Positions 1-13,005 of a DNA stretch of 13,205 nucleotides are shown in pieces. How positions within the stretch are numbered: position 1 is the stretch's first letter; the number at the start of each line of letters is the position of its first letter. Origin of the DNA: a virus (taxonomy: Duplodnaviria; Heunggongvirae; Uroviricota; Caudoviricetes); the IMG/VR virus record IMGVR_UViG_2671180849_000011. One strand, 5' to 3'. Position numbers and translations under genes: made by a program. The notes under the pieces were generated by a model, which was given only the letters and a program-made list of their open reading frames with translations, was not told where the DNA came from and searched no databases.

Positions 1-88
1 CCCCCTGGGCACCGGACCCGCCTCAAAGGTCGGATCATCACAATTGGCGGGGCGATTTTATAGTCGCTTTAAGGTTTATAGACCGGAG

Positions 89-118
89 TTGACTTACCTT
101 CCGGCAACCTGCTAACAT
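89..118 (+). promoter_or_regulatory. candidate sigma70 promoter (TTGACT - 18 bp - TAACAT)
   Basis: -35 TTGACT at 89-94, 18-bp spacer, -10 TAACAT at 113-118; a 10-bp inverted repeat CCTGCTAACA (108-117) / TGTTAGCAGG (142-151) overlaps the -10 and could be an operator. Confidence 0.4.
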
Positions 119-124
119 TAGTCT

Positions 125-215
125 CGCGAGAGGTTGATTTTTGTTAGCAGGTTTTGCCCCGCATCAAAAGGATACCGGAGAAGAGCCCCTTTGTTAACAC
201 TTAGGGGCTTTTTTC
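125..215 (+). ncRNA. candidate small RNA of about 90 nt (promoter-to-terminator unit with no ORF)
   Basis: Predicted start about 125 after the -10; no ATG/GTG-initiated ORF before the terminator; 5' end GCGAGAGGTTGATTT (126-140) is antisense to leader elements at 8510-8527 and 9052-9069 of - strand mRNAs. Confidence 0.3.
184..215 (+). terminator. rho-independent terminator
   Basis: Stem AGCCCCT (184-190) / AGGGGCT (203-209), 12-nt loop, then T-run 209-214; sits just beyond the stop (266-268) of the convergent 708-aa gene. Confidence 0.6.
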
Positions 216-265
216 TTGCCTGGAGTTTATCCGGTCAGGCTAACTTATTGATTTAGATCACAATA

Positions 266-2392
266 TTAGAAAAGCTGGTTAGATTCCTGTGTGGCTTTCC
301 AATCCAACTGATCGCTGACTTCCTTCTGGATCACCCTGGCAATTCCACCCTCATCGATGGTTATCTCCCATTTGCCGGAAATCTCACCTTGTGGAACTAC
401 ATTAACCTGAGCAGGTTGATAGCCACCATTCTGAATAGCCGTACCAGTGCTAGGAGTAGGACGTGACGGGCTAATTGTTGGATATGGATTAAAGGAAGCT
501 CCTTTGCTGATGTAGCTATGGTTATAGGCCCCTGGCTTGGTCATAGCATCCTGCTCATCACTGAGAAGGCCTTTAGATTTAGCCCACTCCCCGAACTGAT
601 CAGCCTTGCTTTGCATCCATCCTCTGAACTTCTCACCTACCGTCTTAGCGCCAAGTGCGCCAGCGACACCAACACCCACACCTGCGGCACTGCCAGCGGC
701 TAATGCTGTTGTTGGGCTTCCAGCGACTGCCCCGCCAGCACCCTTAACGAGATTGCCCAGACCTGGAATCTTGCCTATCAGAGAAATCAGTTGGGTGACA
801 AGTGAAACAAATCCGGTTAGAGGGGAAAGCAGTGTAGTAATAACTTTCAGACCAGCTAAGCCGACTACCAATTTTCCGATAAGCTCGCCAACCTCTGATC
901 CGGTCATGCCGAACTCTTTAGCCTTGACCTCGATATATCCCTTAGCAAAGCCTACCCAATACATGATCTCCCGCATGGCAGCTCCGACTGCCTCACCAAA
1001 CTGTTTTGCCGCGCTCCCGCTGCCGTCCATATCAGTGGTGAGGTCTTCGAAGATGGAGATCAGAGATTCAGATAAGCTAATAACGCCATCTGCAGGATCC
1101 ACAACACCCATAAATTGAATCGCCAGCTCGTTAAAGCTGTTTTTCATGCGCTGCATTGCTACTTCTGGCTGTTTCATGGATTCAGCAAAAGCTTTAGTTT
1201 CTTTTGCAGCACCCCATATTTTCACCAAAGAAGGAAGTAGCTTGTCCAGGGTGATTTTGCCATCTTTAAGGGCTTTATCGAATTCCTGGGCATTCTTGAT
1301 GATTCCGGCATCAATAGCGGCCTGTTGGAAGTCCTGTTGTGAGCCTGCAAAGGCTTCTGACAGTTGGCCCCGCAGCTCTTCAGCCATAACTTTTCCCTTT
1401 GAAGCCATTTGTTGGACCGCAACAAGCGCCCTGTTCTGTTGCTCACCAGTAGCACCCACTGAGCGGCCTTTAATAGCCATAGCCTCAAAGAGAGCCTGCT
1501 TATCAGATTCCTTCATGGTGGGGGTAGCTGCAGCAAAGCGCATGTAGCCCCCTTGCATCTCCCGCTCATCCATCCCATAGGTGTAGGCTGTGTTCTTGAT
1601 AAAAGCCATCTGCTGATCAGTCTTGGCTTTATCATCCTTGTTCTGTGCCATCAAACCGAAGTAGGCACTGTTGCGATCTGCAAGGCTACCCATAGCACCA
1701 CTAACAGCACGCTGAACACCCCAGCCAGCGGCAGTAAGGCCAATGGCTATCTTGCCTAGTGTGGAGTTGATTTTGCCCAGGTTGTCATGCACCTTGCTGG
1801 CACCTGATGCCAGTTTATCCAGTCTGCTCTGAAATTTTCCGGCCTCTACTGTTGCCATCTTCATTTCAGATCTGAGCCGGGCCATTTTCTGATTATAGGT
1901 CTGCAGGTTAATAGCCCCTTTAGCATAATCAGCATTAACTCTCTGGATTCTGGATTGGAACTGAGCAACCAGGGAGCCATCAAACATGCTGCTGATTCGT
2001 GCACTGTTGGCCCCTACACGGGCCTTTCTGTGCTGAACATCTCCAACACTACGATCTAACAGTTTTTGTTGTCTGGCGGCCTCTCTGGCTTGCTGCTGAT
2101 AGAACTTGCGCATAGAGGAGAGCTCCGGATTATTGCCCCCGGTCAGACGGCTAACAGCCTGAGCACGTTGTTTCTTCTGTGCTCTGGCGATCTGCTCTTC
2201 CACCTTAGCGCGTGTTCTTTGTGTTCTGAGCACAGCCTGATTAGATTTAAAATCAGCTTTAGCTATATCGTCGGTAGCTTTCTTCCAGGATTTTTTATAA
2301 TCCTCAAGCCGTTTAACTTCTTTTCGCCAGCTGGATTTATCAGAATCCCAGTAAATAACGTTTGTTAGTCTGGCGATTTCCTTCATTGCCAT
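266..2392 (-). CDS. tail tape-measure-like protein (708 aa)
   Basis: Long ORF; N-terminal Q/R/A/K-rich predicted coiled coil; central segment (ALVAVQQMASKGKVMAEELRGQLSEAFAGS...) that I read as tape-measure-like; Gly/Ala/Val-rich hydrophobic stretch typical of tape measure proteins; RBS GGCGAGGTG before ATG at 2392; translationally coupled to the upstream gene. Confidence 0.55.
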   Translation of the reverse strand: MAMKEIARLTNVIYWDSDKSSWRKEVKRLEDYKKSWKKATDDIAKADFKSNQAVLRTQRTRAKVEEQIARAQKKQRAQAVSRLTGGNNPELSSMRKFYQQQAREAARQQKLLDRSVGDVQHRKARVGANSARISSMFDGSLVAQFQSRIQRVNADYAKGAINLQTYNQKMARLRSEMKMATVEAGKFQSRLDKLASGASKVHDNLGKINSTLGKIAIGLTAAGWGVQRAVSGAMGSLADRNSAYFGLMAQNKDDKAKTDQQMAFIKNTAYTYGMDEREMQGGYMRFAAATPTMKESDKQALFEAMAIKGRSVGATGEQQNRALVAVQQMASKGKVMAEELRGQLSEAFAGSQQDFQQAAIDAGIIKNAQEFDKALKDGKITLDKLLPSLVKIWGAAKETKAFAESMKQPEVAMQRMKNSFNELAIQFMGVVDPADGVISLSESLISIFEDLTTDMDGSGSAAKQFGEAVGAAMREIMYWVGFAKGYIEVKAKEFGMTGSEVGELIGKLVVGLAGLKVITTLLSPLTGFVSLVTQLISLIGKIPGLGNLVKGAGGAVAGSPTTALAAGSAAGVGVGVAGALGAKTVGEKFRGWMQSKADQFGEWAKSKGLLSDEQDAMTKPGAYNHSYISKGASFNPYPTISPSRPTPSTGTAIQNGGYQPAQVNVVPQGEISGKWEITIDEGGIARVIQKEVSDQLDWKATQESNQLF

Positions 2393-2395
2393 CTC

Positions 2396-2581
2396 TTACA
2401 CCTCGCCCTGTCTTAAAGATTTTGATAATGAAATAGCTCTTTTCAGGGCCTCTTTATCAATATTATATTTCTCCGCAAGCTCTTCGATTGAGAGGTCACC
2501 AGAGGAAGAAGCCCCGCCCTTAATGACGGGAGCATTGTTATCACTTTTTAATTTTTGATAAATCTTTTCGTAGGTATTCAT
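2396..2581 (-). CDS. hypothetical small protein (61 aa) with helix-turn-helix-like segment
   Basis: ATG at 2581 one nt after stop of the upstream gene (TGA-T-ATG); its stop TAA 2396-2398 lies 3 nt before the tape-measure ATG; segment LSIEELAEKYNIDKEALKRAI looks HTH-like. Confidence 0.45.
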   Translation of the reverse strand: MNTYEKIYQKLKSDNNAPVIKGGASSSGDLSIEELAEKYNIDKEALKRAISLSKSLRQGEV

Positions 2582-2582
2582 A

Positions 2583-2966
2583 TCATTTGCCTTTGCGTCT
2601 TAGTGGACACTTATCGCCAATAGTCCACACAAAAATATAATGGCGCTTGCTTTCAGCTTTAGGATTTAATAATTCTTTATGCAAATATCCGGCTGACAGC
2701 ATTTGATCGACCAGGTTTTTCACTCTTTGCCCTTCCTCAAACGTTTGTGTTTTGAAATAGAGATTTGGAAAGTTTTGGCCTGTATATTTTCCATCTTCAT
2801 ATAAGCGGGTGCATACCCAGCGACATAAATCATCATCGTTAAAATCACTAACGTGTGGTTTATCCTCACTGCTAAATAACGCCTGTTTAAAACGGGAGTA
2901 TTTAAACTCCCCATCTTCCAGGAAATCACCCTCATCGAATTCAACTATCATTTCTTCAATATTCAT
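2583..2966 (-). CDS. hypothetical acidic protein (127 aa from second ATG; 129 aa if ATG 2972)
   Basis: ORF in track; SD AAGGA is 7 nt before ATG at 2966; D/E-rich N-terminal half; occupies the position where tail assembly chaperones usually sit but no slippery heptamer seen. Confidence 0.5.
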   Translation of the reverse strand: MNIEEMIVEFDEGDFLEDGEFKYSRFKQALFSSEDKPHVSDFNDDDLCRWVCTRLYEDGKYTGQNFPNLYFKTQTFEEGQRVKNLVDQMLSAGYLHKELLNPKAESKRHYIFVWTIGDKCPLRRKGK

Positions 2967-3010
2967 AGGCATATCCTTTTAGATAAACATGAAAAGTAAG
3001 ATAAATAAAG

Positions 3011-3033
3011 GCACCCCCATTTTTTGAGGGTGC
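3011..3033 (-). terminator. intrinsic terminator-like hairpin (bidirectional context)
   Basis: Stem GCACCC (3011-3016) / GGGTGC (3028-3033) with T-rich loop; U-rich tail on the - strand (CTTTATTTAT, complement of 3001-3010) directly after the stop of the 147-aa gene at 3041. Confidence 0.4.
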
Positions 3034-3040
3034 TTATTAA

Positions 3041-3484
3041 TCATTCAAGATTTACCAGTTTGAGAGGCTTCACCGCCTGCAGCATGGCCTGCATCATTCC
3101 TACGCTTATTTCGAAGAGGTCTGCCATGTTTTGAAGGCTGGCACCTTCTGCCTCGATCATTGATTTGGAGAGCGCCGCGATCACGAATCCATCTTTGGCG
3201 TTATCCCACATGCTGATAAGAGGATCCTCACCGTGCTGGCGCATAAGGTCCTGAATCATCCACAGGCGCATTGCCATAACCACCAAATCGACATAAAAAA
3301 CATCACCATTGGCGGACTTGCATTCAGCAAAAGCGTGGTGTCTGTGTTTTAAGAAGTGCTCTTTGTCACGGGTAAATGCCAGGGTGTTGGTAAACTTGCC
3401 ATCTAAAAGATCCTGGCGAACTTTTGAATCTTCAGCGTCGATAGCTTTGATAACCTGGGATAATAATTTAGCGATTTGAGACAT
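3041..3484 (-). CDS. hypothetical protein (147 aa; track ORF extends to 3514)
   Basis: SD AAGGA 7 nt before internal ATG at 3484 (MSQIAKLL...); predicted helical protein with no recognisable motif. Confidence 0.5.
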   Translation of the reverse strand: MSQIAKLLSQVIKAIDAEDSKVRQDLLDGKFTNTLAFTRDKEHFLKHRHHAFAECKSANGDVFYVDLVVMAMRLWMIQDLMRQHGEDPLISMWDNAKDGFVIAALSKSMIEAEGASLQNMADLFEISVGMMQAMLQAVKPLKLVNLE

Positions 3485-3572
3485 TTGGAATTCCTTAAAA
3501 TTTATATGAGCCATCCGGCATATTTACCGGACGGCAGAATCAATAACTTGCGGCATATGTGAAGGCTATAAG

Positions 3573-4058
3573 CTATTTGCGCTGCATTGCTTTCCGGACT
3601 TTATTGCTGTGGCGGCGGTAGATGAATATAAATTCGCGATAAGCACGACTACCGGGCTTAGGCAAACGTTGATTAAGCTCCTTACGTGGCAGGAGGTCGC
3701 TCAACAAGCCCCAGACATGAAAGCAGGTTACTTTTAATTCTTTTGCTATCTCTTCAATATTCATCCCGCAATTCCACATTAAAAGAGATTTGCGGCGGCG
3801 ATCTTCGAAGACATTTCTATCTCTATCTATTTCGTTATAGACACTGAGGGGAACTCGACACCGTGGATTCCAGGATTCTTCATATAGTTTTTGGACTTTC
3901 TCAAGTTTAACGCCTGTATATTCCGCCACGAATTCAGGGGTAAAGCCCTCGACTAATAAGTGTTTGGCCTGTCGTGTTGGTTGATCATCACTGGGGAGAT
4001 ATTTCTGCAGTGCTACCAGTTTTTCAAATTGGGAATCAGAAAGATCAGATTTGAACAT
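3573..4058 (-). CDS. hypothetical DNA-binding protein (161 aa) with two HTH-like segments
   Basis: ATG 4058 preceded by GGAG at 8-nt spacing; segments FTPEFVAEYTGVKLEKVQKL and GMNIEEIAKELKVTCFHVWGLL resemble HTH motifs; basic C-terminus. Confidence 0.5.
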   Translation of the reverse strand: MFKSDLSDSQFEKLVALQKYLPSDDQPTRQAKHLLVEGFTPEFVAEYTGVKLEKVQKLYEESWNPRCRVPLSVYNEIDRDRNVFEDRRRKSLLMWNCGMNIEEIAKELKVTCFHVWGLLSDLLPRKELNQRLPKPGSRAYREFIFIYRRHSNKVRKAMQRK

Positions 4059-4146
4059 GATTAATTCTCCGAACGTTTAAAAGATCAGGGCAATCAATCT
4101 AGTTCTAGTAATTCTATGTTTAGTTTATTTAGTTTATTTGGGGGTG

Positions 4147-4293
4147 TTAATAAGGGATGTCAGAATCATTTTCTTCATCTGCTGGATCTTCAGCTAACCA
4201 ACCACAATATTCTTCCCAATATGAAAAATGTTGTGATAGTTCATCTTCAAAATATTTTTCCTTTTCCAGGTAATAATCAAAATCGCCATACAT
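4147..4293 (-). CDS. small highly acidic aromatic-rich protein (48 aa), not in ORF track
   Basis: ATG 4293 with SD AAGGAAG at 6-nt spacing, stop TAA 4147-4149; translation MYGDFDYYLEKEKYFEDELSQHFSYWEEYCGWLAEDPADEENDSDIPY has 16 D/E versus 2 K and no R; fills the gap between two called genes on the same strand. Confidence 0.35.
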   Translation of the reverse strand: MYGDFDYYLEKEKYFEDELSQHFSYWEEYCGWLAEDPADEENDSDIPY

Positions 4294-4334
4294 TTTAAAC
4301 TTCCTTAAACAAAAAAATAAGATTATCAGTGTTT

Positions 4335-5231
4335 TTATTTAAACTCTAAAATGCCTTTTTTATTTTTTCTAACATTTCTCCACAATATTTCGGGATAATC
4401 TCCGCAGGTTTTATCTAACAATATTTCGAATCCCATCCCAATAAGCTTATTTGCAAAAATAAAAACAGGTCTGGTTAAATGCCAGTATTCTTCCGGTTTC
4501 CAGATTTCACCCTCTATTTTCCCTTTATGTTGGCTTACCTCTTCTGCGGTGTAAAAATCCTCCTGAATCTTTGACAAAAGGATCGGGCGACGTTTGTTTA
4601 AATCTTTGTATTTGCTTTCCCACAGTGATCGCATTATGCCTTTAGCCTCACTCTCACCCAGGACAATCCAGCCCCCATCGGTTACATCTTTCACAGGACG
4701 GCCCCGGCGTGGCTTGTCACTAACAGCGTTAATTTGAGGCGCTTTAGTGTCTTGGGTAGGCAATTGCACCACCTTAGCCTTTTTAGCTTGCTGTGTGGCT
4801 TGTTTTGGGGCTTCTTGCGGGTGTTTCTCTTCACTACCTGCATTGCTCATAGGTTGTATTCCTTGAGCGTCACACATTTTGCAGATTTGAGAAGGAGTAA
4901 TTAACAGTTTGTAATGATTAGATTTGCCTTTACTTTTAATTACTGAAATAAGCCCGGCATTTTCCAGAGTTTTGATAGATTCAATGATTTTTCTATCACT
5001 CACACCACATATTTTTGCTAAGGTCTGCTCTGAGATAAATATTTCTTGCCCGTTTAAATGAAAACCTGCCATTTTTCCATAGATTGTTACCTCTATCAGG
5101 TCTAAATTAAATCGCTCTTTTGTTTTTCCAGTCTTTTTATTAGCAATTGTTGTTGCTACTGGTTTATCAAAAGTATACTGAATGAGGCGTTCGAAATGGG
5201 GATTAAAAACCTCCCCGTAATTACTTGCCAT
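4335..5231 (-). CDS. winged-helix DNA-binding protein (298 aa), replication-initiator-like or antirepressor-like
   Basis: ATG at 5231 preceded by GGGGGA; N-terminal wHTH-like segment ISEQTLAKICGVSDRKIIESIKTLENAGLISV; central P/Q/K/A-rich linker with KPRRGRPVK (AT-hook-like); architecture recalls lambda O-type initiators (from memory, unverified). Confidence 0.5.
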   Translation of the reverse strand: MASNYGEVFNPHFERLIQYTFDKPVATTIANKKTGKTKERFNLDLIEVTIYGKMAGFHLNGQEIFISEQTLAKICGVSDRKIIESIKTLENAGLISVIKSKGKSNHYKLLITPSQICKMCDAQGIQPMSNAGSEEKHPQEAPKQATQQAKKAKVVQLPTQDTKAPQINAVSDKPRRGRPVKDVTDGGWIVLGESEAKGIMRSLWESKYKDLNKRRPILLSKIQEDFYTAEEVSQHKGKIEGEIWKPEEYWHLTRPVFIFANKLIGMGFEILLDKTCGDYPEILWRNVRKNKKGILEFK

Positions 5232-5244
5232 AGTTCCCCCACAG

Positions 5245-5460
5245 TTATTTATTAATGTTGTTGGTGTATTTAGCCAGCTCACGCTCAAGGCGGAGACGAT
5301 TCAGTTCTAAAATTGCCGCTTCAATGTGTGGATATTCTCCTTTGTGTTTACGAATAAATGCATAAACGGAAGTTTTTCGAAAGTTACCTTTAAGCACGTT
5401 CTCGACGATTTCGTCAGTAGTCCAGTTTACCAGCTGGCTTATCGGTCCGGTTTTAGCCAT
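5245..5460 (-). CDS. hypothetical small protein (71 aa)
   Basis: ATG 5460 preceded by SD AGGAGA at 7-nt spacing; stop 13 nt before the next start; basic, possibly DNA-binding. Confidence 0.5.
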   Translation of the reverse strand: MAKTGPISQLVNWTTDEIVENVLKGNFRKTSVYAFIRKHKGEYPHIEAAILELNRLRLERELAKYTNNINK

Positions 5461-5592
5461 GATTCAATCTCCTGTTAGCTCACTAACCTGTGCGATATAT
5501 GGTTAAAAAGAAACGGGAACTTAAGACAAGCCCCCGCATTTTTGTTTAAGGAAATTCACTATGATGAGAATTACCCTATGATTTATATTTTA

Positions 5593-5742
5593 TCAGCTAT
5601 TTGCGAGATTGTCAACAATCTTTTTGTATTTATCTATCATTTTTTCTTCAAGGTTGTCGATTGCAGCTACTCCGGCTATGTAGGCAACACCGCACCACAG
5701 TACAGCCAGGTTGATGATCGCTATAGCGTCGCTCAGTTCCAC
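5593..5742 (-). CDS. small single-pass membrane protein (49 aa, GTG start), not in ORF track
   Basis: GTG 5742 preceded by GGAGG at 5-nt spacing; translation VELSDAIAIINLAVLWCGVAYIAGVAAIDNLEEKMIDKYKKIVDNLANS is one hydrophobic helix plus charged tail; stop TGA 5593-5595. Confidence 0.3.
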   Translation of the reverse strand: MELSDAIAIINLAVLWCGVAYIAGVAAIDNLEEKMIDKYKKIVDNLANS

Positions 5743-5786
5743 GTTGACCTCCGGATCTGTTTCTCCCACTATCTATAATCTTATCA

Positions 5787-5808
5787 TATTGACAACCAAT
5801 TGTCAATA
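5787..5808. promoter_or_regulatory. palindromic operator overlapping candidate leftward promoter
   Basis: Perfect inverted repeat TTGACAA (5789-5795) - CCAA - TTGTCAA (5800-5806), arms extend to 9 bp; on the - strand TTGACA, 17-bp spacer, TAAGAT; a third half-site TTGTCAAT at 5929-5936. Confidence 0.4.
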
Positions 5809-6424
5809 GGAATCATTATCATTTAGGCGAGCTATAGGTACAAACAAGTCCACAGCAAAGGGGTAAGCATTATTAATGGCCCCTACCGTGTCAAAACCAA
5901 AGTCACTTATAGCATTTATGCAATAAGATTGTCAATGGCCCACAAGGGAGGGAGAGCACTTTTTGCCTTAAGCGCTCTAAAATCGATTCTAACGCGATTT
6001 AGAGGTCAGGTAATGCAATTGCACTACTCACACAAGTTAATGCAGCCAGAAGGCCATTTAGGGGCCTTATTTTCGATTTCTGAGCGTCCTGTTACGTGTG
6101 TGCATACACGGGCGCGCGGAATCCCTCGCTTAAACGGTCCGGATTGGAAACAGAAGTCTCTTATCCGGACTCCACATTATATAGCTACGTGCTATCGCAC
6201 TACGCTACCCACACACAGGCCGACGTAGTCGGTTTAGCTGTATAGCTAAAGTCACAGAGTGACCCACACACAGATTGCCTAAAGAGTCGCTAATGCTCTT
6301 TAGGCTTTCATTTGTGGGTTAAGCTTTTCCCTTAGAAAACCTTCCCCACTCTCTGATCCCTCCCCATTCCCCTTGGGGGGTTAGGGGGGGATCTGTTGTG
6401 TGATCTATTAATTTATCTATTAGA

Positions 6425-6645
6425 GTGAGAAATTTTCAGGGGTACTAGTGAGAAATCTTCGGTAGTAGTGGTGAGAAATTCTCAGGGGTGTGGGTAGGTA
6501 TGGTGGTTAAGTAGTGAGAAATCTTCAGTAGTTAGAGGCTGTGTATCATGGGGGCAATGACTGCAAAACGGGAAAGCATGACTGTATAAACACACAGGTG
6601 TGAAAATTCTTCACAGGTTAGCGACACCGGAAAAATCTTCAGTAG
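6425..6645. repeat. iteron-like direct repeats, six copies of about 18 bp (consensus GTGAGAAATCTTCAG(G/T)(G/A)G)
   Basis: Copies at 6425-6442, 6448-6465, 6471-6488 (exact 23-bp phasing), 6514-6531, 6598-6617 (degenerate), 6630-6645; preceded by G-run GGGGGGTTAGGGGGGG 6375-6390. Confidence 0.6.
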
Positions 6646-6655
6646 TGTCTATCTG

Positions 6656-6753
6656 CATATGTGGGAAATACACCCTTATTGACCTATTTTGACTAGCAAA
6701 CCTCTCTCTTCTCTCTTTGCTCTGATTTCCTCTCATGTGTGGGAAATATGCAT
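6656..6753. repeat. second repeat family CAT(A/G)TGTGGGAAATA (two copies) flanking a CT-rich tract
   Basis: catatgtgggaaata at 6656-6670 and catgtgtgggaaata at 6734-6748; pyrimidine-rich tract 6701-6734; a related copy aaaatgtgggatata near 7047-7061. Confidence 0.45.
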
Positions 6754-7488
6754 ACCAACACCCGTTGATTTTATCAATAGCTATGTTGACCGGGCATCAT
6801 AAGTGTGGCCCCTGAGGCAGTCCATCCTTCCCTCACACAGGACAATGAATATATAAAGAACATGAAAGACTGTTCACACCAACACGCCGATAAATTGCCT
6901 GAAGAGGCTTACATGGGGTTATTGTTGTGTGGGTAATGGTGATCATGCTAACAGATTATGTTAATCAGATGTAAATTCCGATTTTGTGGTCTGCATGGAG
7001 CAAACTATACTGGTTAAATGATCAGGGGAATGACTACAAAACAATCAAAAATGTGGGATATAGCCATCTACACGTCTAATGTGCTGTGTGGGGTGTTAGT
7101 GCATGCTTACATGTAAGTCATTGATTTGAAGGGTTGGGAAAATTGCATTTAACATAATAGATCTTATCTACACTAATAAAGCGAACTACAAAATCTGATT
7201 TAAAAATCATGATCAGTGGGCACAGAATTTACGTACAGCCACCTGAATAAATAATGTGCACAACATACAGCAAAGCTTAAGAATTAACATAATAGCAACG
7301 TGGTCAGTAGTGGTGTGATATTTGAGAATTGTTAGAAGAAAAAAGGGAGGTGGGGGAGCGCCTGCCTGGCACCTCAGACGAGTTACCCATAAGCTCAAAT
7401 ACCGCTAATGGATATTTCTGACACCCACACCCAAGACCGCTTTCAGCACATAGCCATATAGCCACACAGGACCGCACAGGATGCAATT

Positions 7489-7698
7489 GTGATAACAAAA
7501 AATGGGGGTGTAATAGGGTAGGTCACCTTTCATCAAAATCACTTCTACGACGTTTCCAGAGTGATAACAAGAAAACAGGCCTCTAAGATTATCTGTGCCT
7601 CGTTTTTAGCTTTTTGTGTGGTTACCAGGTGAAGAGGAAATGTTAAAAACTGTTCATTTTATGCACAAACTAGTCAGGGTGATACCACAAAATGAGGT
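7489..7698. repeat. third repeat family GTGATA(A/C)CA-A-rich-GG, three copies
   Basis: gtgataacaaaaaatggggg 7489-7508, gtgataacaagaaaacagg 7561-7579, gtgataccacaaaatgagg 7679-7697; DnaA-box-like TTATGCACA at 7659-7667. Confidence 0.45.
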
Positions 7699-7887
7699 GT
7701 AAGAAATCCAGCTGCAGATAATCTTGCAGCCAGATTTTGCAGTTTTTTAGGGTATGTTAAATTTGACAAAAATAGAGAAAAGGCTTATTAAGCTAACTTA
7801 TTGATTTTATTAGTATTACGAAAAAGGGTTACACCCTCTCTCTTACTCTGTCAACCGGGCGGTTGTGGCATAAAACGGATTAAATCA

Positions 7888-7946
7888 ATAAATAGGCATT
7901 AAATAGGGGATAAATAGGGGTTAATTGAGGGATAAATAAAAAGGGG
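7888..7946. repeat. five tandem 11-bp phased repeats (A/T)TAAAT(A/T)GGGG
   Basis: Units start at 7888, 7899, 7910, 7921, 7932 (exact 11-bp period); last unit merges into the terminator stem. Confidence 0.55.
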
Positions 7947-7959
7947 CCGTGATGGCCCC
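7931..7959 (-). terminator. rho-independent terminator of the membrane-protein gene
   Basis: Stem GGGGCC (7943-7948) / GGCCCC (7954-7959), loop GTGAT; - strand tail TTTTTATTTATC (complement of 7931-7942); 8 nt past stop codon 7968-7970. Confidence 0.6.
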
Positions 7960-7967
7960 CTGGTAGG

Positions 7968-8498
7968 TCAGAACAGTTTTTTGCTTTTTCTCCAACTAAC
8001 GCCGCGTTTGCCTATGCTCAGCCAGCCGCCAGCGAATCGGGTACCTGCGGTAACACTAGCTCCCCTGGTACCTACATGTGCATAAATACCTGCTCCACTG
8101 CTACCACCGCTTCTACGGCTTTTTCCGCCATCGATATCAAGGAGAACACAGATCGCATTCCACCAAAAGCCGATCACCCATATTGCAAATGCTAAGCCTA
8201 AAACGCCCCAGGTGACCGCCCACCCTTCCAGACTAGTGGGGAAGTAGAAAGCATTGAGAACAGCATTTATAGGGCGGATCAGGAGAAAATCTATAAAACC
8301 AGTATCCACATGAAACGGTCCATTGCCGAACTTGCTACTGCCAATAAATAAGGTAGCAGGGTAAAAGAAGATAGCCATTGCCCAAGGGCCAATAAGCAGG
8401 ATAGTAGCCCCGAACTGTGCGGCCTCCTTAAAGAACATTTTTACTATTGCTTTAAAAAGCTTTTTGTTTTCTGATTCTTTATCTTTCTGAAATAACAT
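7968..8498 (-). CDS. polytopic membrane protein (176 aa) with Gly/Ser/Arg-rich C-terminal tail
   Basis: ATG 8498 preceded by AAGGGG; about four hydrophobic segments; own terminator; position and type fit a superinfection-exclusion or abortive-infection moron (inference). Confidence 0.6.
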   Translation of the reverse strand: MLFQKDKESENKKLFKAIVKMFFKEAAQFGATILLIGPWAMAIFFYPATLFIGSSKFGNGPFHVDTGFIDFLLIRPINAVLNAFYFPTSLEGWAVTWGVLGLAFAIWVIGFWWNAICVLLDIDGGKSRRSGGSSGAGIYAHVGTRGASVTAGTRFAGGWLSIGKRGVSWRKSKKLF

Positions 8499-8509
8499 GA
8501 CGGTACCCC

Positions 8510-8527
8510 TTTGCGAGAAGTTGAATT
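8510..8527 (-). promoter_or_regulatory. conserved leader element copy 1, 12 nt upstream of ATG 8498
   Basis: + strand TTTGCGAGAAGTTGA (8510-8524) identical to 9052-9066 at the same distance from a start codon; 13/15 match to 126-140. Confidence 0.5.
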
Positions 8528-8555
8528 TAGTTAATAACCTGTTGGACTGTTCCTA

Positions 8556-8816
8556 CTATTTATTCTTCTTAAATCTCCCATCCTCCTTTCTCTCGATATT
8601 GTGGTAGTCGGCATAGGCTTTCAGCCTTCTGTGCACGGTGGCGATCCCCACACCGAAGGTTTTAGCGATAACCTGTCGTGGTGTTCCCTCTTCAACCATC
8701 TTGTACATCTGTTCCGCTACATCCATTTGTGCGGCTATCTCCATTTGCTTTGCCTTAGCTTTAATTTCAGCTATCAGCTCTTCCCTCAGTCTCCTGATAT
8801 CTTTAGCCCCCGTCAT
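8556..8816 (-). CDS. small HTH DNA-binding regulator (86 aa)
   Basis: SD GAGGAG 3 nt before ATG 8816; N-terminal predicted coiled coil; C-terminal HTH TPRQVIAKTFGVGIATVHRRLK of the resolvase/Mor-like type (by eye). Confidence 0.6.
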   Translation of the reverse strand: MTGAKDIRRLREELIAEIKAKAKQMEIAAQMDVAEQMYKMVEEGTPRQVIAKTFGVGIATVHRRLKAYADYHNIERKEDGRFKKNK

Positions 8817-8839
8817 AAACTCCTCTCAATGCTGTTCAT
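8813..8839 (-). CDS. 8-codon upstream micro-ORF (MNSIERSL) overlapping the HTH gene start
   Basis: ATG 8839 preceded by GCGGAG; stop TGA 8813-8815 overlaps ATG 8816 (ATGA); lies in an 18-bp direct repeat that duplicates the SD-start region. Confidence 0.2.
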   Translation of the reverse strand: MNSIERSL

Positions 8840-8916
8840 AAACTCCGCTCAATCATGATTAGTAGAACATCCAGGATAGCCAGACCTATTAAAAATGCTT
8901 TGCCTCCTTTGCCCAT
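8836..8916 (-). CDS. 26-aa hydrophobic micro-ORF (MGKGGKAFLIGLAILDVLLIMIERSL)
   Basis: ATG 8916 preceded by GGAGG at 6-nt spacing, 1 nt after stop of the upstream micro-ORF; stop TGA 8836-8838 overlaps ATG of the 8-codon uORF (ATGA). Confidence 0.25.
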   Translation of the reverse strand: MGKGGKAFLIGLAILDVLLIMIERSL

Positions 8917-8917
8917 C

Positions 8918-9040
8918 TCACACCTCCACACACAGAGCTAACATCAGGGCTAACACTCCAACCACCTCAATTGCCTTAACAATGTGTGGGTGATGAAACC
9001 TGGCCTTTTGCCATGCGCTGGCACTGTTCTTGATACCCAT
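8918..9040 (-). CDS. 40-aa micro-ORF with C-terminal hydrophobic helix (track ORF extends to 9145)
   Basis: Internal ATG 9040 preceded by SD AAGGTGA at 5-nt spacing and by leader element copy 2; ATG 9145 has no SD and the N-terminal extension is low-complexity. Confidence 0.3.
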   Translation of the reverse strand: MGIKNSASAWQKARFHHPHIVKAIEVVGVLALMLALCVEV

Positions 9041-9051
9041 AACTATCACCT

Positions 9052-9069
9052 TTTGCGAGAAGTTGATTT
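9052..9069 (-). promoter_or_regulatory. conserved leader element copy 2, 12 nt upstream of ATG 9040
   Basis: + strand TTTGCGAGAAGTTGA (9052-9066) identical to 8510-8524; GCGAGAAGTTGATTT (9055-9069) is 14/15 identical to 126-140. Confidence 0.5.
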
Positions 9070-9336
9070 GTTTGTTCGGTTGGGGTGCTATCAATGATCC
9101 CCTTCCTTGATTCGAACTATAGCCGGGTAAATCACTGGAAAACATTGATATTGATCAAAAGATATCTATCACGAATGAAAAAGTTATGATAGATGATAGG
9201 AGTCGCATAGCTGCGACCTTGGCTGTGTGCCAAGCCTGCAAAGCAGGTCAGGGATGAGGTGACGTATTGATGGGATTGATAGAGGTCTGAAAATACCGTT
9301 ACCACGCTAATTATTAGAATTTATATAATCAGGATG

Positions 9337-9365
9337 TTGACAATGTGAGTAAATACTGATATAAT
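9337..9365 (+). promoter_or_regulatory. perfect-consensus sigma70 promoter (TTGACA - 17 bp - TATAAT) with AT-rich upstream region
   Basis: TTGACA 9337-9342, exactly 17-bp spacer, TATAAT 9360-9365; AT-rich 9305-9335 (UP-element-like); faces the capsid genes. Confidence 0.65.
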
Positions 9366-9373
9366 ATACAGTA
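9354..9373. promoter_or_regulatory. LexA-type SOS box overlapping the -10 element
   Basis: TACTGATATAATATACAGTA matches the E. coli-type consensus TACTG(TA)5CAGTA at all ten flanking positions with an AT-only core. Confidence 0.45.
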
Positions 9374-9508
9374 TACCGTGAATCATTTAGCGAAGGTGGT
9401 TTACCGTATTTTCCTCCAAAGTAACGGCGACCAGGTAGCGGTGCCGCCTTATAAATAACACTACCCTGATCATCGTTGAGTGGTCGATTAATTCTCCTAT
9501 TGGGCTAG

Positions 9509-9517
9509 TTATCCACA
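9509..9517 (+). promoter_or_regulatory. consensus DnaA box TTATCCACA inside the capsid-operon leader
   Basis: Exact 9-mer; also the 5' arm of an inverted repeat CCACACAG (9513-9520) / CTGTGTGG (9539-9546). Confidence 0.3.
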
Positions 9518-9845
9518 CAGTTTTCTTTTGCGGGTTTTCTGTGTGGGTAGCTATCCCGAAAGGTATTTCCCCGCTGATGTGACCGCAGCCTGAACTGATT
9601 CGGGGGAGTGCCTTTCGTGATAGTGCTCTCTAGCAACCGTAACCATGCAGTGAACTATCAGCCAACTGTTGTTGGTTTTCCCCATATGGAATAGCCCCCG
9701 CTTGGACGGTGCGGGGCTATCTCCCTCTCCTTATATCAATCCCCCTTTAGATTTCCGGCATAACTTTTCGGCCCGAGCCTGTCGTGGTTTGAGAGGTTAT
9801 ACCTGAACCCTTTGAGGGGAGTTAATTTAAATCGCAGGTGATCAA

Positions 9846-10181
9846 ATGAGAGATATGACTATCCGCACACGCGGACACATCATTTCATACGCCGCAGATG
9901 AGCAATTTAGTATTCGCGACGTTGAAGTTAAAAACAAAGTTAAGACTGAGATTCCGGCTGGCACTGTTGTTGTGGTGACTGAGGCTGGCGAGGTTGAGAC
10001 CTTCGTTAAAGCAACGCACACCGGTAAAACTCCGCTGCTGGTTGTAGAACGTGCTGAAGTTGGTGATTCCTTTATCGTTGTTGCGAACAAAGGTTGCTAC
10101 ATCAATCCGGCCTATGTGGACAAAGACGGCTTAGCCGCTGTTGTTGCTGCCAGCAATGGCGATTTGCGTGTTGCACAATAA
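9846..10181 (+). CDS. head decoration-like protein (111 aa), assignment by position
   Basis: ATG 9846 preceded by AGGTGA at 5-nt spacing; strongly biased high-expression-type codons; immediately upstream of the capsid gene, as gpD is in lambda; no sequence similarity to lambda gpD recognised. Confidence 0.5.
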   Translation: MRDMTIRTRGHIISYAADEQFSIRDVEVKNKVKTEIPAGTVVVVTEAGEVETFVKATHTGKTPLLVVERAEVGDSFIVVANKGCYINPAYVDKDGLAAVVAASNGDLRVAQ

Positions 10182-10192
10182 GGAGGTTGAAA

Positions 10193-11239
10193 ATGGCTAA
10201 GAAAGAATTCGAAGTTCGCGATCTGTGTGGTCTGATTAAAGATATCCCGCCGGATAACATGATTATTTCTGCAATGGATATCTTCAACACTACTGCTCTG
10301 TGCAATACCTTTAAATTTGAATATGACAAAGTTCGCCAGGTGAAACAAACCGCTTTCGGTCAGTATCCGCGCTACGGTGAACAGATGGCTACCATTACCG
10401 CAGATGAGCGTGAAACGGGCACGGGTGATATGGCATTCACTGCCGCATCAAGTGCTATTTATCCTTCTGACTGGCAGGGTATCCGCGTTCCTGGCAAAGA
10501 TTCCGAAGAGAATCTAGAGTCTGTAACCGCTCGTCGTGTTATTCAGCTGGGCGAAGGCTTACGCCAGACCCACGAAGAAGCACGCCAGCTTGCTCTCTTT
10601 GAGAACAAAATTATCCTCACCAAGGGTAAAGAACTGAATGTGTGCGAACTGCTGGGCGCACAGCAAACCACTTCAGAAGTGGATCTAACTCAAGATATCC
10701 TTAAACAGCTGCAGGACCTGGTTGCACTGAGCAAGGTTAAACAGCGTGGTGTCGTTCGTGCCCTGCGTGGTTTCACCCTGTTCTGCCGTGCTGAACTGTT
10801 TACCGCTATTCAGACTGATGAACTGCTCCGTAAAGTGCTGTTGTTCGGCAATCAGAACATTACCGACAAAGGTCTGATGTTCCCTGAGGATATTCTGCCG
10901 GGCTTCCCGACCTTCCGCATTCCGGGCTTAGCCCTGCGTGTGGTGCAAATGGATAGTCTGCCAGAGAATACTGCTTATCTGGTCCCACAGTTCCAGCCGC
11001 ATGCGTTAGGCGATATGGTGGGCGTTTATACTCAATTTTTCGGCCCTTGCGCTCGCAACCTGAAGCTGGCAAACGGCGCTGCACGTGAAGCTTTCATGTA
11101 TATGGAAGAGTCCAGAGGCAAACGCGAAATCTTCGTTGAATCCTCTTATGCTTTCATGAACATGATGCCTGAAGTTGTGGTTAAAGTGAGTGTTAAAAAC
11201 ACCGCCGCCGCTGCTCTGGCAAAAGCCAAGGCTAAATAA
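10193..11239 (+). CDS. major capsid protein, lambda gpE-like family (348 aa)
   Basis: ATG 10193 preceded by AAGGAGG at 6-nt spacing (track ORF starts at an upstream TTG); strong codon bias; collinear matches to lambda gpE as I recall it (FKF near N-terminus, LPENT versus LPDNT, C-terminal V-S-V); size fits. Confidence 0.6.
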   Translation: MAKKEFEVRDLCGLIKDIPPDNMIISAMDIFNTTALCNTFKFEYDKVRQVKQTAFGQYPRYGEQMATITADERETGTGDMAFTAASSAIYPSDWQGIRVPGKDSEENLESVTARRVIQLGEGLRQTHEEARQLALFENKIILTKGKELNVCELLGAQQTTSEVDLTQDILKQLQDLVALSKVKQRGVVRALRGFTLFCRAELFTAIQTDELLRKVLLFGNQNITDKGLMFPEDILPGFPTFRIPGLALRVVQMDSLPENTAYLVPQFQPHALGDMVGVYTQFFGPCARNLKLANGAAREAFMYMEESRGKREIFVESSYAFMNMMPEVVVKVSVKNTAAAALAKAKAK

Positions 11240-11243
11240 AAGC

Positions 11244-11296
11244 AAAGGGAAGAGGTGGGAGATTGTGGGTAGGTCTTTCCCTCTTCCCTTTTTTGT
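11244..11296 (+). terminator. strong rho-independent terminator after the capsid gene
   Basis: 12-bp stem AAAGGGAAGAGG (11244-11255) / CCTCTTCCCTTT (11280-11291) then T-run to 11294; begins 5 nt after stop codon. Confidence 0.65.
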
Positions 11297-11328
11297 TATC
11301 CCCGTCTTAAGTTTTTGAGGTGTCTTTT

Positions 11329-11580
11329 ATGAAAATTGTTTTATACGGCGACCGTGACGACGTGCCTTTTGATATTATCCATATCGATGACGAGGATCTG
11401 CCGGAATTCCTGCGTATCTCCACATTTGCCGCCTGCTATGACGTTAGCCGCCAGGCTATGCATAAATACCGTGAATATAATAAATGCACCTGGGCCGAGA
11501 CTTTCGAACATTTTATTGCACGCAAACAAGCCCAGGACCGCAAAAAAGCCCTGAATGCGCATAATCGTTTTGCAAAATAA
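11329..11580 (+). CDS. hypothetical small protein (83 aa)
   Basis: ATG 11329 preceded by GAGGTG at 6-nt spacing (track ORF starts at GTG 11320); acidic N-terminus, basic C-terminus. Confidence 0.5.
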   Translation: MKIVLYGDRDDVPFDIIHIDDEDLPEFLRISTFAACYDVSRQAMHKYREYNKCTWAETFEHFIARKQAQDRKKALNAHNRFAK

Positions 11581-11654
11581 CGATAGATAGCCCTGTCTTT
11601 TTATCAGAATTCACACAGGGCCACCAAAAGATTCAATTTGGAGGCATGTTTAAT

Positions 11655-12458: not shown

Positions 12459-12913
12459 GTCCGAAAGTCCGTTGCACCATAGACAAGCGCATGATGGATA
12501 AGCTGCATAAAGAGCTCTCACAGATGGAAGGTGTAGCGGTTGGCTGGGATGACGGGAAACACTATAGCGGCCTGAATTACGCCACACTGGCAGCAATTCA
12601 TTCTGAGGGGTGGGGTGATCTGCCTAAGCGCTCCTTTATGGAATCTGCCCACGCAGCAATGCTCTATGAGAGCCTGAGACACACAAAAGCCCTGATTAAT
12701 GCAATCGTAAAGGGTGGGAGCTCTGAGGCCGTCAGGAAGCGAATAGGCAAGCGATACGCCGACATTCTGGAGACTATCCTGATTAGTGGGCAATTCAGCA
12801 ACAACAAGGTTTCCCCACAATGGGCAAGCTATAAAGGCTTCAATGATGCCATGCGCCACTATGATGATTTGATCGGTGCAATCAAATACTGGTCAAATGT
12901 GGGGAGAGGTTGA
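12455..12913 (+). CDS. hypothetical protein (152 aa), translationally coupled
   Basis: ATG 12455 overlaps upstream stop (ATGA); GGAG 8 nt upstream; no recognisable motif. Confidence 0.55.
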   Translation: MSPKVRCTIDKRMMDKLHKELSQMEGVAVGWDDGKHYSGLNYATLAAIHSEGWGDLPKRSFMESAHAAMLYESLRHTKALINAIVKGGSSEAVRKRIGKRYADILETILISGQFSNNKVSPQWASYKGFNDAMRHYDDLIGAIKYWSNVGRG

Positions 12914-12929
12914 AAAGAGGTAATAGTGT

Positions 12930-13005
12930 TCTTTTGAGGCCGTAGTGAGGCTAATCACGGTCCGGCTTAAAAAAGACAATAGGATGTCTTTTGAGGCCGT
13001 AGTGA
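12930..13005. repeat. two copies of a 19-bp direct repeat TCTTTTGAGGCCGTAGTGA
   Basis: Exact copies at 12930-12948 and 12987-13005 (57-bp spacing), similarity extends upstream (AATAG..); 17 nt after stop of the 152-aa gene. Confidence 0.5.

What the first reader, a model, noticed from the sequence alone, without database searches (positions are those of the whole stretch)
4147..4293. Unannotated 48-aa hyper-acidic, aromatic-rich micro-protein
A - strand ORF with a good SD fills the gap between two genes and is absent from the ORF track. Sixteen of 48 residues are D/E, with only two K and no R, and there are many Y/W/F. That composition is typical of DNA-mimic proteins (Ocr/ArdA-like anti-restriction factors, some anti-CRISPRs) and of acidic chaperone tails.
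Basis: partly seen in the sequence, partly recalled or inferred. Interest (0 to 1): 0.55.

Follow-up and report, generated by a model that had tools for sequence, protein, structure and literature searches.

The report
Acidic tail microprotein partnering plasmid initiator
The 48-residue acidic ORF is a real, selected gene, but it looks less like an anti-restriction DNA mimic than like a detachable acidic tail of the plasmid's replication initiator, ending in a motif that resembles the tip bacterial SSB uses to recruit replication proteins.

Summary
The ORF at 4147..4293 (-) exists as described: 48 aa, 16 D/E, 2 K, no R, 12 aromatics, with an AAGGAAG Shine-Dalgarno 6 nt upstream. It is protein-coding: dN/dS is 0.11 against an 81%-identical allele. 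RefSeq relatives already annotate it as a hypothetical protein.

The window is a ~13 kb Escherichia/Shigella plasmid that carries capsid and tail genes distantly like rV5-type phages, so it is probably a plasmid-borne phage satellite.

The ORF always sits directly downstream of the lambda-O/RepA_N-like replication initiator. Every initiator allele with a folded, basic C-terminal domain (motif YWHLT) is followed by a small acidic, aromatic-rich ORF of 48, 71 or an unrelated 53/54 aa. Initiator alleles that lack this domain have no such ORF. They carry a fused acidic, aromatic-rich tail that is homologous to the microprotein tail and ends ...NDSAIPY, against ...NDSDIPY in the microprotein.

AlphaFold predicts one amphipathic helix followed by a disordered tail.

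Best reading (inferred, not shown): the microprotein supplies the initiator in trans with an SSB-tip-like (DDDIPF-like) docking tail that recruits host or helper-phage replisome proteins. The DNA-mimic anti-restriction reading is not excluded but is poorly supported.

The parts
4147..4293 (-). 48-aa acidic, aromatic-rich microprotein gene, including the stop codon
   Evidence: dN/dS 0.11 against L007. The protein is identical or 98% identical in every plasmid fetched that carries the canonical 48-aa form; diverged 81% and 71-aa alleles and an unrelated 53/54-aa ORF also occur in the slot. Annotated as WP_001682500.1 in RefSeq relatives.
4300..4306 (-). Shine-Dalgarno AAGGAAG, 6 nt before the ATG
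   Evidence: Conserved as AAGGAA(A/G) in relatives.
4192..4287 (-). Residues 3-34: predicted amphipathic helix with an aromatic/hydrophobic stripe (F5, L9, F15, L19, F23, W26, C30, L33)
   Evidence: AF2 model m617c8058f413, pLDDT 70-81 over this segment. Residues 1-33 are conserved in the 71-aa homologue P0051.
4150..4191 (-). Residues 35-48: disordered acidic tail AEDPADEENDSDIPY, ending in the conserved N-x-x-x-[IV]-P-Y-COOH
   Evidence: pLDDT 50-57, no secondary structure. The terminal motif is kept in P0002, in P0051 (..NCDCVPY) and in the fused initiator tails (..NDSAIPY).
4335..5231 (-). Replication initiator, 298 aa from MASNYG. N-terminal winged-helix domain (4848..5204), disordered P/Q-rich linker (4692..4847), folded basic C-terminal domain with IWKxxxYWHLT (4338..4691)
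3573..4058 (-). Downstream 161-aa gene with weak HTH matches. Present in all family members whether or not the microprotein is present
5587..5615 (-). Best sigma-70-like promoter upstream of the orf71-rep-microORF-orf161 gene string (TTGACA-17-TAAAAT, 11/12). No terminator-like site is predicted around the microORF
   Evidence: This is a consensus match only.
6423..6646 (+). Five copies of a 21-23 bp repeat (probable iterons and origin) inside a ~2.2 kb CDS-free region. This places the likely origin away from the microORF

Best explanation
The ORF encodes a small adaptor protein that belongs to the plasmid's replication-initiation module. It has an N-terminal amphipathic, aromatic-faced helix (residues 3-34). 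I infer that this helix docks onto the basic, folded C-terminal 'YWHLT' domain of the lambda-O/RepA_N-like initiator encoded immediately upstream. It also has a disordered, strongly acidic, aromatic-rich tail whose last residues (N-x-x-x-I/V-P-Y-COOH) form a docking tip. That tip is of the same kind as the E. coli SSB C-terminal tip (DDDIPF-COOH) and the acidic, aromatic-terminated tails of T7 gp2.5 and gp4. Bound to the origin through the initiator, the tail would recruit a replisome component. Candidates are host SSB-interacting proteins such as PriA, DnaG or Pol III chi, and/or the DNA polymerase of the rV5-like helper phage. In sister plasmids the same job is done in cis: the initiator has lost the YWHLT domain and the separate ORF, and carries a homologous acidic tail at the end of a P/Q-rich disordered linker. 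That arrangement (DNA-binding domain, linker, tip) matches the architecture of SSB.

Status of each step. Shown: the gene is real and under purifying selection. Shown: strict linkage to the initiator. Shown: split and fused forms are mutually exclusive. Shown: the tails are homologous. Shown only as a prediction: the helix-plus-disordered-tail shape. Inferred: binding to the initiator C-terminal domain. Inferred: the identity of what the tip recruits.
For: 1. Real gene: dN/dS 0.11. The ORF is intact in every plasmid examined that has it.

2. Position: always 30-45 nt after the initiator stop, with its own SD and no terminator predicted.

3. Split/fused complementarity: 98 of 100 initiator clusters of types A/B/B' contain YWHLT and none ends in IPY. 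All of the type C clusters whose sequences were retrieved (32 of the 44 found) lack YWHLT and end ...DPYGYDEDEYxPFEDEYxNDSAIPY. Every YWHLT locus in which the slot could be read, including three Rep clusters chosen blind to the slot, has a small acidic ORF there. All six type C loci have none, only an 88-nt gap.

4. Tail homology: the 71-aa homologue P0051 shares the N-terminal helix with the 48-aa protein. Its last 20 residues align with the type C tail (DPEDWDPNEDKYANCDCVPY against DEDEYSPFEDEYINDSAIPY), scoring 53 against 27.6 +/- 5.1 in shuffles, p ~0.001.

5. Selection on the tip: between the 48-aa and 71-aa genes the last 7 codons differ at 10 of 21 bases, yet N, I/V, P and Y are kept.

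6. An unrelated 53/54-aa ORF in the same slot is also acidic (-12), Tyr-rich and ends ...DDDYYDEDY, which points to convergence on an acidic tail with an aromatic terminus.

7. Charge complementarity: the C-terminal halves of YWHLT initiators are +7 to +9 (pI ~9.5), the microproteins are -12 to -15, and the type C C-terminal half is -19.

8. AF2 predicts one helix plus a disordered tail for the microprotein. For the initiator it predicts a winged helix, a disordered linker and a folded C-terminal domain. The initiator N-terminal domain resembles DnaD-NTD and RepA_N initiators.

9. Precedent for the motif: SSB-Ct DDDIPF binds DnaG, chi, PriA, ExoI and more than 14 partners in all (PMC5872125). 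The acidic tail of T7 gp2.5, with an essential C-terminal Phe, binds T7 DNA polymerase (PMC12339929 and references there).

10. In an rV5-like phage (the closest relatives of the plasmid's capsid and tape-measure genes), a 409-aa protein ends ...AFDDDIPF and the primase-helicase ends ...FEDDETPF.
Against: No binding was tested, and no co-folding could be run.

The tip ends in Tyr, not the canonical Phe, and positions -4 to -6 are S/D/N rather than D-D-D. The 53/54-aa analogue lacks the I/V-Pro motif.

The identical 48-aa protein pairs with C-terminal domains of types A and B, which are only about 30-45% identical. Type B' domains pair with three different small proteins. So a specific helix-to-domain interface is not evident from co-variation.

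Adjacent genes are co-inherited, so linkage alone does not prove a physical interaction.

Most loci were retrieved through the microprotein or the initiator, so the counts are not a random sample.

Purifying selection rests mainly on one diverged lineage. The window-against-L019 comparison over the helix gives dN/dS 0.62 from few changes.
Confidence: 0.5

Rival explanations
1. Free-acting decoy. The microprotein is not tethered to the initiator. It floats as a competitive mimic of SSB or primase-helicase acidic tails and titrates the binding pocket of a helper-phage polymerase or of host SSB-dependent nucleases and helicases. The effect would be to damp helper replication, or to protect the satellite, in the satellite's favour.
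For: The tip resemblance is the same as in the main model (PMC5872125). The rV5-like phage has DDDIPF- and ETPF-terminated replication proteins. There is no clear co-variation with the type of initiator C-terminal domain. Satellites are known to interfere with helper replication (own knowledge: PLE against ICP1).
Against: This does not explain why the ORF disappears exactly when the initiator acquires a homologous tail and loses its basic C-terminal domain. A constitutive decoy for essential SSB interactions would be expected to be costly in a plasmid that is stably carried.
Confidence: 0.15
2. DNA-mimic anti-defence protein. An acidic helical protein, perhaps dimerising into a coiled coil like T7 gp5.9, blocks a DNA-binding defence enzyme such as a type I restriction enzyme or RecBCD.
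For: Net charge is -14 in a 48-aa protein on a mobile element. A single long acidic helix is compatible with a gp5.9-type dimer (PMC9836394). An unrelated acidic ORF can occupy the same slot, as in accessory-gene hotspots.
Against: There is no similarity to Ocr, ArdA or any Pfam, PHROG or PDB entry. Conservation is strongest on the aromatic face and on the terminal N-x-x-x-[IV]-P-Y, not on a periodic charge pattern. The tail is homologous to one fused to a replication initiator. Presence is tied to the initiator type rather than varying freely. No homologue exists in 50,697 phage records or outside this plasmid family.
Confidence: 0.12
3. Initiator regulator. The acidic tail acts as a DNA mimic towards the initiator's own DNA-binding surfaces, in trans as the microprotein or in cis as the fused tail. 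It would limit iteron binding or handcuffing and so set copy number, as acidic tails auto-inhibit SSB, T7 gp2.5 or HMGB1.
For: The linkage, split/fused pattern and charge complementarity fit this as well as the main model. Acidic tails that fold back on DNA-binding domains are well known (own knowledge).
Against: Electrostatic auto-inhibition does not need a precisely conserved C-terminal I/V-Pro-Tyr-COOH and Asn at -7, and such a tip suggests a specific pocket. Type C keeps the tip although the basic C-terminal domain is gone.
Confidence: 0.15
4. No protein function. The ORF is conserved because the DNA is a cis-acting site (origin or packaging site) or encodes an RNA.
For: The DNA is almost 100% identical across plasmids whose flanks differ. 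The region is AT-rich, 31% GC.
Against: In the diverged allele, substitutions pile up at third positions (dN/dS 0.11) and the frame and length are kept. The iterons lie elsewhere. There is no Rfam match and no repeats in the ORF. Type C plasmids do without this DNA.
Confidence: 0.03

Closest known systems
C-terminal tip of bacterial SSB (SSB-Ct, ...DDDIPF-COOH in E. coli)
   Same: The tip sits at the extreme C-terminus of a disordered acidic segment. Ile/Val is at -3, Pro at -2 and an aromatic residue carries the free carboxylate. In type C initiators the whole layout (DNA-binding domain, P/Q-rich disordered linker, acidic tip) copies the SSB architecture (PMC5872125).
   Different: The terminal residue is Tyr, not Phe. 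The three Asp residues are replaced by N-D-S-D/A. There is no OB fold. The tip is carried by a 48-aa helix protein or by a dsDNA-binding initiator. No binding to SSB partners has been shown.
Acidic C-terminal tails of T7 gp2.5 (SSB) and gp4 (primase-helicase), which bind T7 DNA polymerase
   Same: A disordered acidic tail ends in an aromatic residue and acts as a replisome-assembly handle (PMC12339929). The rV5-like candidate helper has analogous tails...DDDIPF and ...EDDETPF. The 53/54-aa slot analogue ends ...DEDY, which is closest to this type.
   Different: The T7 tails belong to large enzymes and ssDNA-binding proteins. Here the tail is a stand-alone microprotein or part of an origin-binding initiator.
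Two-domain plasmid and phage initiators (lambda O; RepA_N family such as pSK41 RepA; PLE RepA)
   Same: An N-terminal winged-helix iteron-binding domain is joined to a variable C-terminal part that is thought to recruit the host or helper replisome (the family biology is own knowledge).
   Different: As far as I could find, none of these is described as using a separately encoded acidic microprotein or an SSB-like tip (searches found none).
Small acidic DNA mimics (T7 Ocr, ArdA, T7 gp5.9)
   Same: Small, very acidic proteins encoded on mobile elements. gp5.9 is about 52 aa and largely one helix (PMC9836394).
   Different: There is no sequence or profile similarity. The aromatic content is 25%. 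The conserved C-terminal docking motif, the fusion to an initiator in sister plasmids and the strict linkage to the initiator type are all absent from the mimics.

Membership tests
Ocr / ArdA anti-restriction DNA mimics | Sequence or profile similarity to the Ocr or ArdA families | tested here: not met
   No Pfam-A family at E <= 0.1. The only PHROG hit has unknown function at E 0.064. No PDB sequence hit below E 0.24.
Ocr / ArdA anti-restriction DNA mimics | Compact fold, usually dimeric, that displays carboxylates in a B-DNA-like pattern | tested here: inconclusive
   The AF2 monomer is one helix (residues 3-34) plus a 14-residue disordered tail, mean pLDDT 67. Oligomers could not be modelled.
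Ocr / ArdA anti-restriction DNA mimics | Protects DNA from type I restriction or other DNA-binding defences | not testable with these tools
   Needs an in vivo restriction-alleviation assay.
SSB C-terminal tip (SSB-Ct) motif | Motif located at the extreme C-terminus of a disordered acidic segment | tested here: met
   ...EENDSDIPY-COOH; residues 35-48 are predicted disordered.
SSB C-terminal tip (SSB-Ct) motif | Ile/Leu-Pro at positions -3 and -2 | tested here: met
   I-P in the 48-aa protein and the type C tails, V-P in the 71-aa homologue. The motif is conserved while neighbouring codons diverge.
SSB C-terminal tip (SSB-Ct) motif | C-terminal Phe preceded by three Asp (DDDIPF) | tested here: not met
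   The terminal residue is Tyr, and positions -4 to -6 are D/A/C, S/D and D/N/C. I therefore call it SSB-Ct-like, not a member.
SSB C-terminal tip (SSB-Ct) motif | Binds the basic-rim hydrophobic pocket of SSB-interacting proteins (chi, PriA, DnaG, ExoI and others) | not testable with these tools
   Needs peptide binding assays or complex prediction.
lambda-O / RepA_N-type initiator module (the upstream gene that this ORF is proposed to serve) | N-terminal winged-helix DNA-binding domain with profile similarity to phage or plasmid initiators | tested here: met
lambda-O / RepA_N-type initiator module (the upstream gene that this ORF is proposed to serve) | Iterated binding sites (iterons) on the replicon | tested here: met
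   Five copies of a 21-23 bp repeat at 6423-6646. Binding by this protein was not tested.

The most novel reading that the evidence does not exclude
A stand-alone microprotein supplies a replication initiator, in trans, with an SSB-tip-like docking tail. This lets a plasmid-borne phage satellite plug its origin into the host's SSB-partner network or into the replisome of an rV5-like helper phage. The same module switches evolutionarily between a split form (microprotein plus adaptor domain) and a fused form (tail on the initiator). This would be a previously undescribed way of recruiting a replisome to an origin and a natural example of SSB-tail mimicry by a mobile element.
Probability: 0.3. 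Interest if true: 0.75.

Novelty: new variant of a known kind. Interest (0 to 1): 0.58.

Why it matters
If the model holds, it shows that the short acidic C-terminal docking tip used by SSBs and T7-type replisome proteins can be borrowed by an origin-binding initiator. The tip can even be delivered by a separate 48-residue protein.

That offers a simple, testable answer to how a small initiator with no helicase loader assembles a replisome. It also suggests how a satellite might capture its helper's replication machinery.

It adds a well-defined microprotein with a natural split/fused 'Rosetta-stone' pair, which is rare for proteins this small.

It also draws attention to a family of ~13-14 kb Escherichia/Shigella plasmids with capsid and tail genes. 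The literature searches made here found no description of this family as a phage satellite.

Tried and rejected
- **Profile and sequence searches for the microprotein.** Rfam with the permissive threshold gave only sub-threshold chance hits and none in the ORF. Pfam, PHROGs and PDB sequence searches gave nothing meaningful.
- **Phage and plasmid collections.** tblastn against phages found no match. Against PLSDB plasmids it found only three E. coli plasmids plus noise.
- **Homologues in large protein sets.** The word-indexed search of 5.8 billion proteins and the exhaustive HMM search of 1.84 billion representatives found only family-internal homologues: P0001, P0002 and P0051.
- **Other contig collections.** Scans of viral contigs and genome contigs with the neighbouring 161-aa protein found no true relatives.
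- **Iterons or repeats inside the ORF.** None were found. The iterons are at 6423-6646, so the idea that the ORF is conserved as origin DNA is rejected.
- **Toxin-antitoxin pairing with the 161-aa gene.** Rejected, because that gene is present in type C plasmids that lack the ORF.
- **Leader-peptide idea.** Rejected on dN/dS and on conservation of the full length.
- **Homology between the 48-aa and 53-aa slot proteins.** Not supported; shuffle p = 0.6.
- **Literature searches.** Searches for this plasmid family, for rV5 satellites and for initiators with SSB-like tails found nothing relevant.

Full report
**Observation.** The - strand ORF 4293..4147 reads MYGDFDYYLEKEKYFEDELSQHFSYWEEYCGWLAEDPADEENDSDIPY*. 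It has 16 D/E, 2 K, no R and 12 aromatic residues; net charge is -14 and pI about 4.05. An AAGGAAG Shine-Dalgarno lies at 4306..4300, 6 nt upstream of the ATG. The ORF fills the gap between a 298-aa gene (stop at 4335) and a 161-aa gene (start at 4058).

**What the window is.** Megablast places the region only on small circular plasmids of 13.2-13.7 kb, in 7 of 5,426 complete E. coli genomes. There is no chromosomal or phage-record match. One record, NZ_CP043822.1, is 39,610 bp with three copies, so it is apparently a trimer.

The wider protein searches show more than 140 initiator clusters (at 90% identity). Nearly all sit on contigs of 13-14.4 kb from E. coli, E. albertii or Shigella, and one is labelled as a Caudoviricetes MAG.

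The plasmids carry four kinds of phage structural gene:
- a major capsid protein (phrog_29);
- a tape-measure protein (phrog_5255, E 5e-191);
- a Dit-like baseplate protein (PF21821; phrog_5197, E 2e-107);
- a tail-completion/Neck1 protein.

The nearest phage relatives of the capsid and tape-measure proteins are rV5-like Vequintavirinae, at about 24-26% identity. So the element is most simply read as a plasmid-borne phage satellite. This is an inference. I found no paper describing it.

**Is the ORF a gene?** PGAP annotates it as WP_001682500.1 (hypothetical protein) in six of the seven complete plasmids. Among close relatives the ORF DNA is nearly invariant, even where the 3' end of the upstream gene is a completely different allele. 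That pattern alone cannot separate protein-level from DNA-level constraint.

The diverged allele P0002 (81% identity; loci L007 and L008) settles the question:
- It differs at 23 bases, 13 of them at third codon positions, giving dN 0.097, dS 0.857 and dN/dS 0.11.
- Length and frame are unchanged.
- The antisense ORF 4116..4298 takes 17 amino-acid changes over the same DNA, against 9 in the sense frame.

No Rfam family matches here. There are no repeats in the ORF. The probable iterons lie about 2 kb away, at 6423-6646. The ORF is therefore a real protein-coding gene.

**How far the family reaches.** The word-indexed search of 5.8 billion proteins returned two clusters. The exhaustive profile search of 1.84 billion representatives added one more, the 71-aa P0051. 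All three lie in the same slot of the same plasmid family. Nothing was found in phage records, Pfam, PHROGs or the PDB.

**Anatomy.** AlphaFold2 on a shallow alignment (mean pLDDT 67) predicts one helix, residues 3-34, followed by a disordered tail, residues 35-48. The helix has a regular 3-4 spaced aromatic/hydrophobic stripe: F5, L9, F15, L19, F23, W26, C30, L33.

P0051 keeps residues 1-33 but has a longer tail...DPEDWDPNEDKYANCDCVPY. Between the two genes the last seven codons differ at 10 of 21 bases, yet Asn(-7), Ile/Val(-3), Pro(-2) and Tyr(-1) are kept. The extreme C-terminus is therefore under selection.

**The neighbour.** The upstream gene is a replication initiator. It matches Pfam HTH_36 and the PHROG families for replication initiation, lambda-O-like and DnaD-like proteins.

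Its AF2 model, built from 43 sequences, has three parts:
- a winged-helix N-terminal domain, residues 10-128;
- a disordered P/Q-rich linker, residues 129-180;
- a folded C-terminal domain, residues 181-298, with pLDDT 75-94.

**The key pattern.** The initiator is modular.
- Alleles I call A, B and B' share a homologous C-terminal domain with the motif IWKxxxYWHLT. Their C-terminal halves are basic, +7 to +9 with pI about 9.5.
- Allele type C comprises 44 clusters at 70-100% identity to one another. It has a different winged helix and the same PQEAPKQAAQQ linker, but no YWHLT domain. In its place is about 110 residues of disordered sequence ending in an invariant acidic, aromatic-rich tail...DPYGYDEDEY(N/S)PFEDEY(T/I)NDSAIPY. 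Net charge of this half is -19.

Of 100 A/B/B' clusters, 98 contain YWHLT and none ends in IPY. None of the type C sequences retrieved contains YWHLT.

In the DNA, every YWHLT locus in which the slot could be read has a small acidic ORF in the slot. These include loci fetched from three initiator clusters chosen without reference to the slot. All six type C loci have only an 88-nt gap there.

Three kinds of ORF occupy the slot:
- the 48-aa protein;
- its 71-aa homologue;
- in B' plasmids, an unrelated 53/54-aa protein, MITLDLTDMVVSKEYLDDLATDKQTQEYYEHTAKDGYIAELRTFDDD(D)YYDEDY. It is also acidic (-12), Tyr-rich and aromatic-terminated. It is not significantly similar to the 48-aa protein (shuffle p 0.6).

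The tail of the 71-aa protein aligns with the type C tail over 20 residues: score 53 against 27.6 +/- 5.1 in shuffles, p about 0.001. The 48-aa tail shares its last seven residues with type C, and shares DNA similarity over about 40 nt. So the separately encoded tails and the fused tails are homologous. The two arrangements, basic C-terminal domain plus acidic microprotein or fused acidic tail, are mutually exclusive.

**Mechanism.** The simplest reading is a gene fission/fusion pair. What matters functionally is an acidic, aromatic-rich tail with an N-x-x-x-[IV]-P-Y-COOH tip attached to an origin-binding winged helix. The attachment is either covalent (type C) or through a microprotein that I infer binds the basic YWHLT domain with its amphipathic helix.

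The tip resembles the E. coli SSB C-terminal hexapeptide DDDIPF. That hexapeptide binds DnaG, Pol III chi, PriA, exonuclease I and more than 14 partners in all (PMC5872125). More loosely, it resembles the acidic tails of T7 gp2.5 and gp4, whose terminal Phe is needed to engage T7 DNA polymerase (PMC12339929 and references there).

Type C initiators even reproduce the SSB layout of DNA-binding domain, P/Q-rich disordered linker and acidic tip.

In the rV5-like phage EduardKellenberger, a 409-aa hypothetical protein next to the replication genes ends ...AFDDDIPF, and the primase-helicase ends ...FEDDETPF. The candidate helper's replisome therefore appears to use such handles too.

I propose that the tail recruits a host SSB-interacting protein and/or a helper replisome protein to the plasmid origin. 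I put the probability at about 0.6 that the microprotein is a functional part of the initiation module. I put it at about 0.35 that the tip works specifically by SSB-tip-like docking. Neither interaction was tested.

**Weak points.**
- The tip ends in Tyr, not Phe, and lacks the Asp triplet.
- The 53/54-aa analogue has no [IV]-P.
- One identical microprotein serves C-terminal domains of types A and B, and B' domains pair with three different small proteins, so co-variation does not demonstrate an interface.
- Adjacent genes are co-inherited.
- Sampling was largely query-driven.

**Rivals.**
- A free decoy that titrates helper or host pockets for acidic tails (0.15).
- A regulator in which the tail mimics DNA towards the initiator itself (0.15).
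T7 gp5.9 (PMC9836394) is a precedent for a tiny helical mimic. This reading has no similarity support, and it does not explain the fusion to an initiator or the strict dependence on initiator type.
- A purely cis-acting DNA or RNA element. This is essentially excluded.

**Novelty and verdict.** The gene itself is already annotated as hypothetical, and acidic docking tails are a known device. What appears new is their use by an origin-binding initiator, their delivery by a dedicated microprotein, and the natural split/fused pair. My searches found no description of any of these. I rate this a new variant of a known kind, of moderate to good interest. The surrounding plasmid-satellite family is worth attention in its own right.

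Noticed in passing
window 1-13205 (whole): The window looks like a complete ~13.2 kb circular plasmid. It belongs to a family found in 7 of 5,426 complete E. coli genomes and in many draft assemblies of E. coli, E. albertii and Shigella. The plasmids carry a major capsid protein (10094-11239 +), a tape-measure protein (266-2392 -), a Dit-like baseplate protein (11646-12458 +) and a Neck1/tail-completion protein (12455-12913 +). These are distantly related (~25% identity, strong PHROG profile hits) to rV5-like Vequintavirinae. The element is a probable plasmid-borne phage satellite, and I found no description of it in the literature searched.
   Followed up: partly
window ~5800-7960: About 2.2 kb has no annotated CDS in any relative. 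It contains five copies of a 21-23 bp repeat (6423-6646, probable iterons), 4.6 copies of an 11-bp unit ATAAATAGGGG (7888-7938) and scattered CCCACACACAGG-like motifs. There is no Rfam match. It may hold the origin and a partition or packaging site.
   Followed up: partly
window, whole; perfect site at 9509-9517 (+): DnaA-box-like sequences (TTATCCACA, up to 1 mismatch) occur 14 times against 3.5 expected from shuffles (0 of 200 shuffles reach 14). They are scattered rather than clustered.
   Followed up: no
L022 23605-24834 (phage EduardKellenberger MZ501061, bas59_0085) and L022 15500-17578 (bas59_0073): An rV5-like phage 409-aa 'hypothetical protein' (phrog_4477, unknown function) has a Q-rich linker and ends in the exact E. 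coli SSB tip, ...AFDDDIPF. It may be an unrecognised phage SSB. The phage primase-helicase ends in a T7-gp4-like acidic tail, ...FEDDETPF.
   Followed up: partly
L030-L032, L037-L040 (upstream of the initiator); L007 6797-7183: Some family members carry an extra 128-172 aa winged-helix gene just upstream of the initiator. The 166-aa version is homologous to the N-terminal domain of the type C initiator. This suggests that type C arose by fusing this module to the shared PQEAPKQAAQQ linker.
   Followed up: no
NZ_CP043822.1 (39,610 bp; hits H5, H8, H24): This record contains three copies of the 13.2 kb unit. It is either a concatemer or multimer of the plasmid, or an assembly artefact.
   Followed up: no
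window 4116-4139 (- strand, just downstream of the ORF stop): A short tandem repeat AAATAAACT/TAAAC varies in copy number and sequence between plasmids. It lies in the AT-rich spacer before the 161-aa gene.
   Followed up: no
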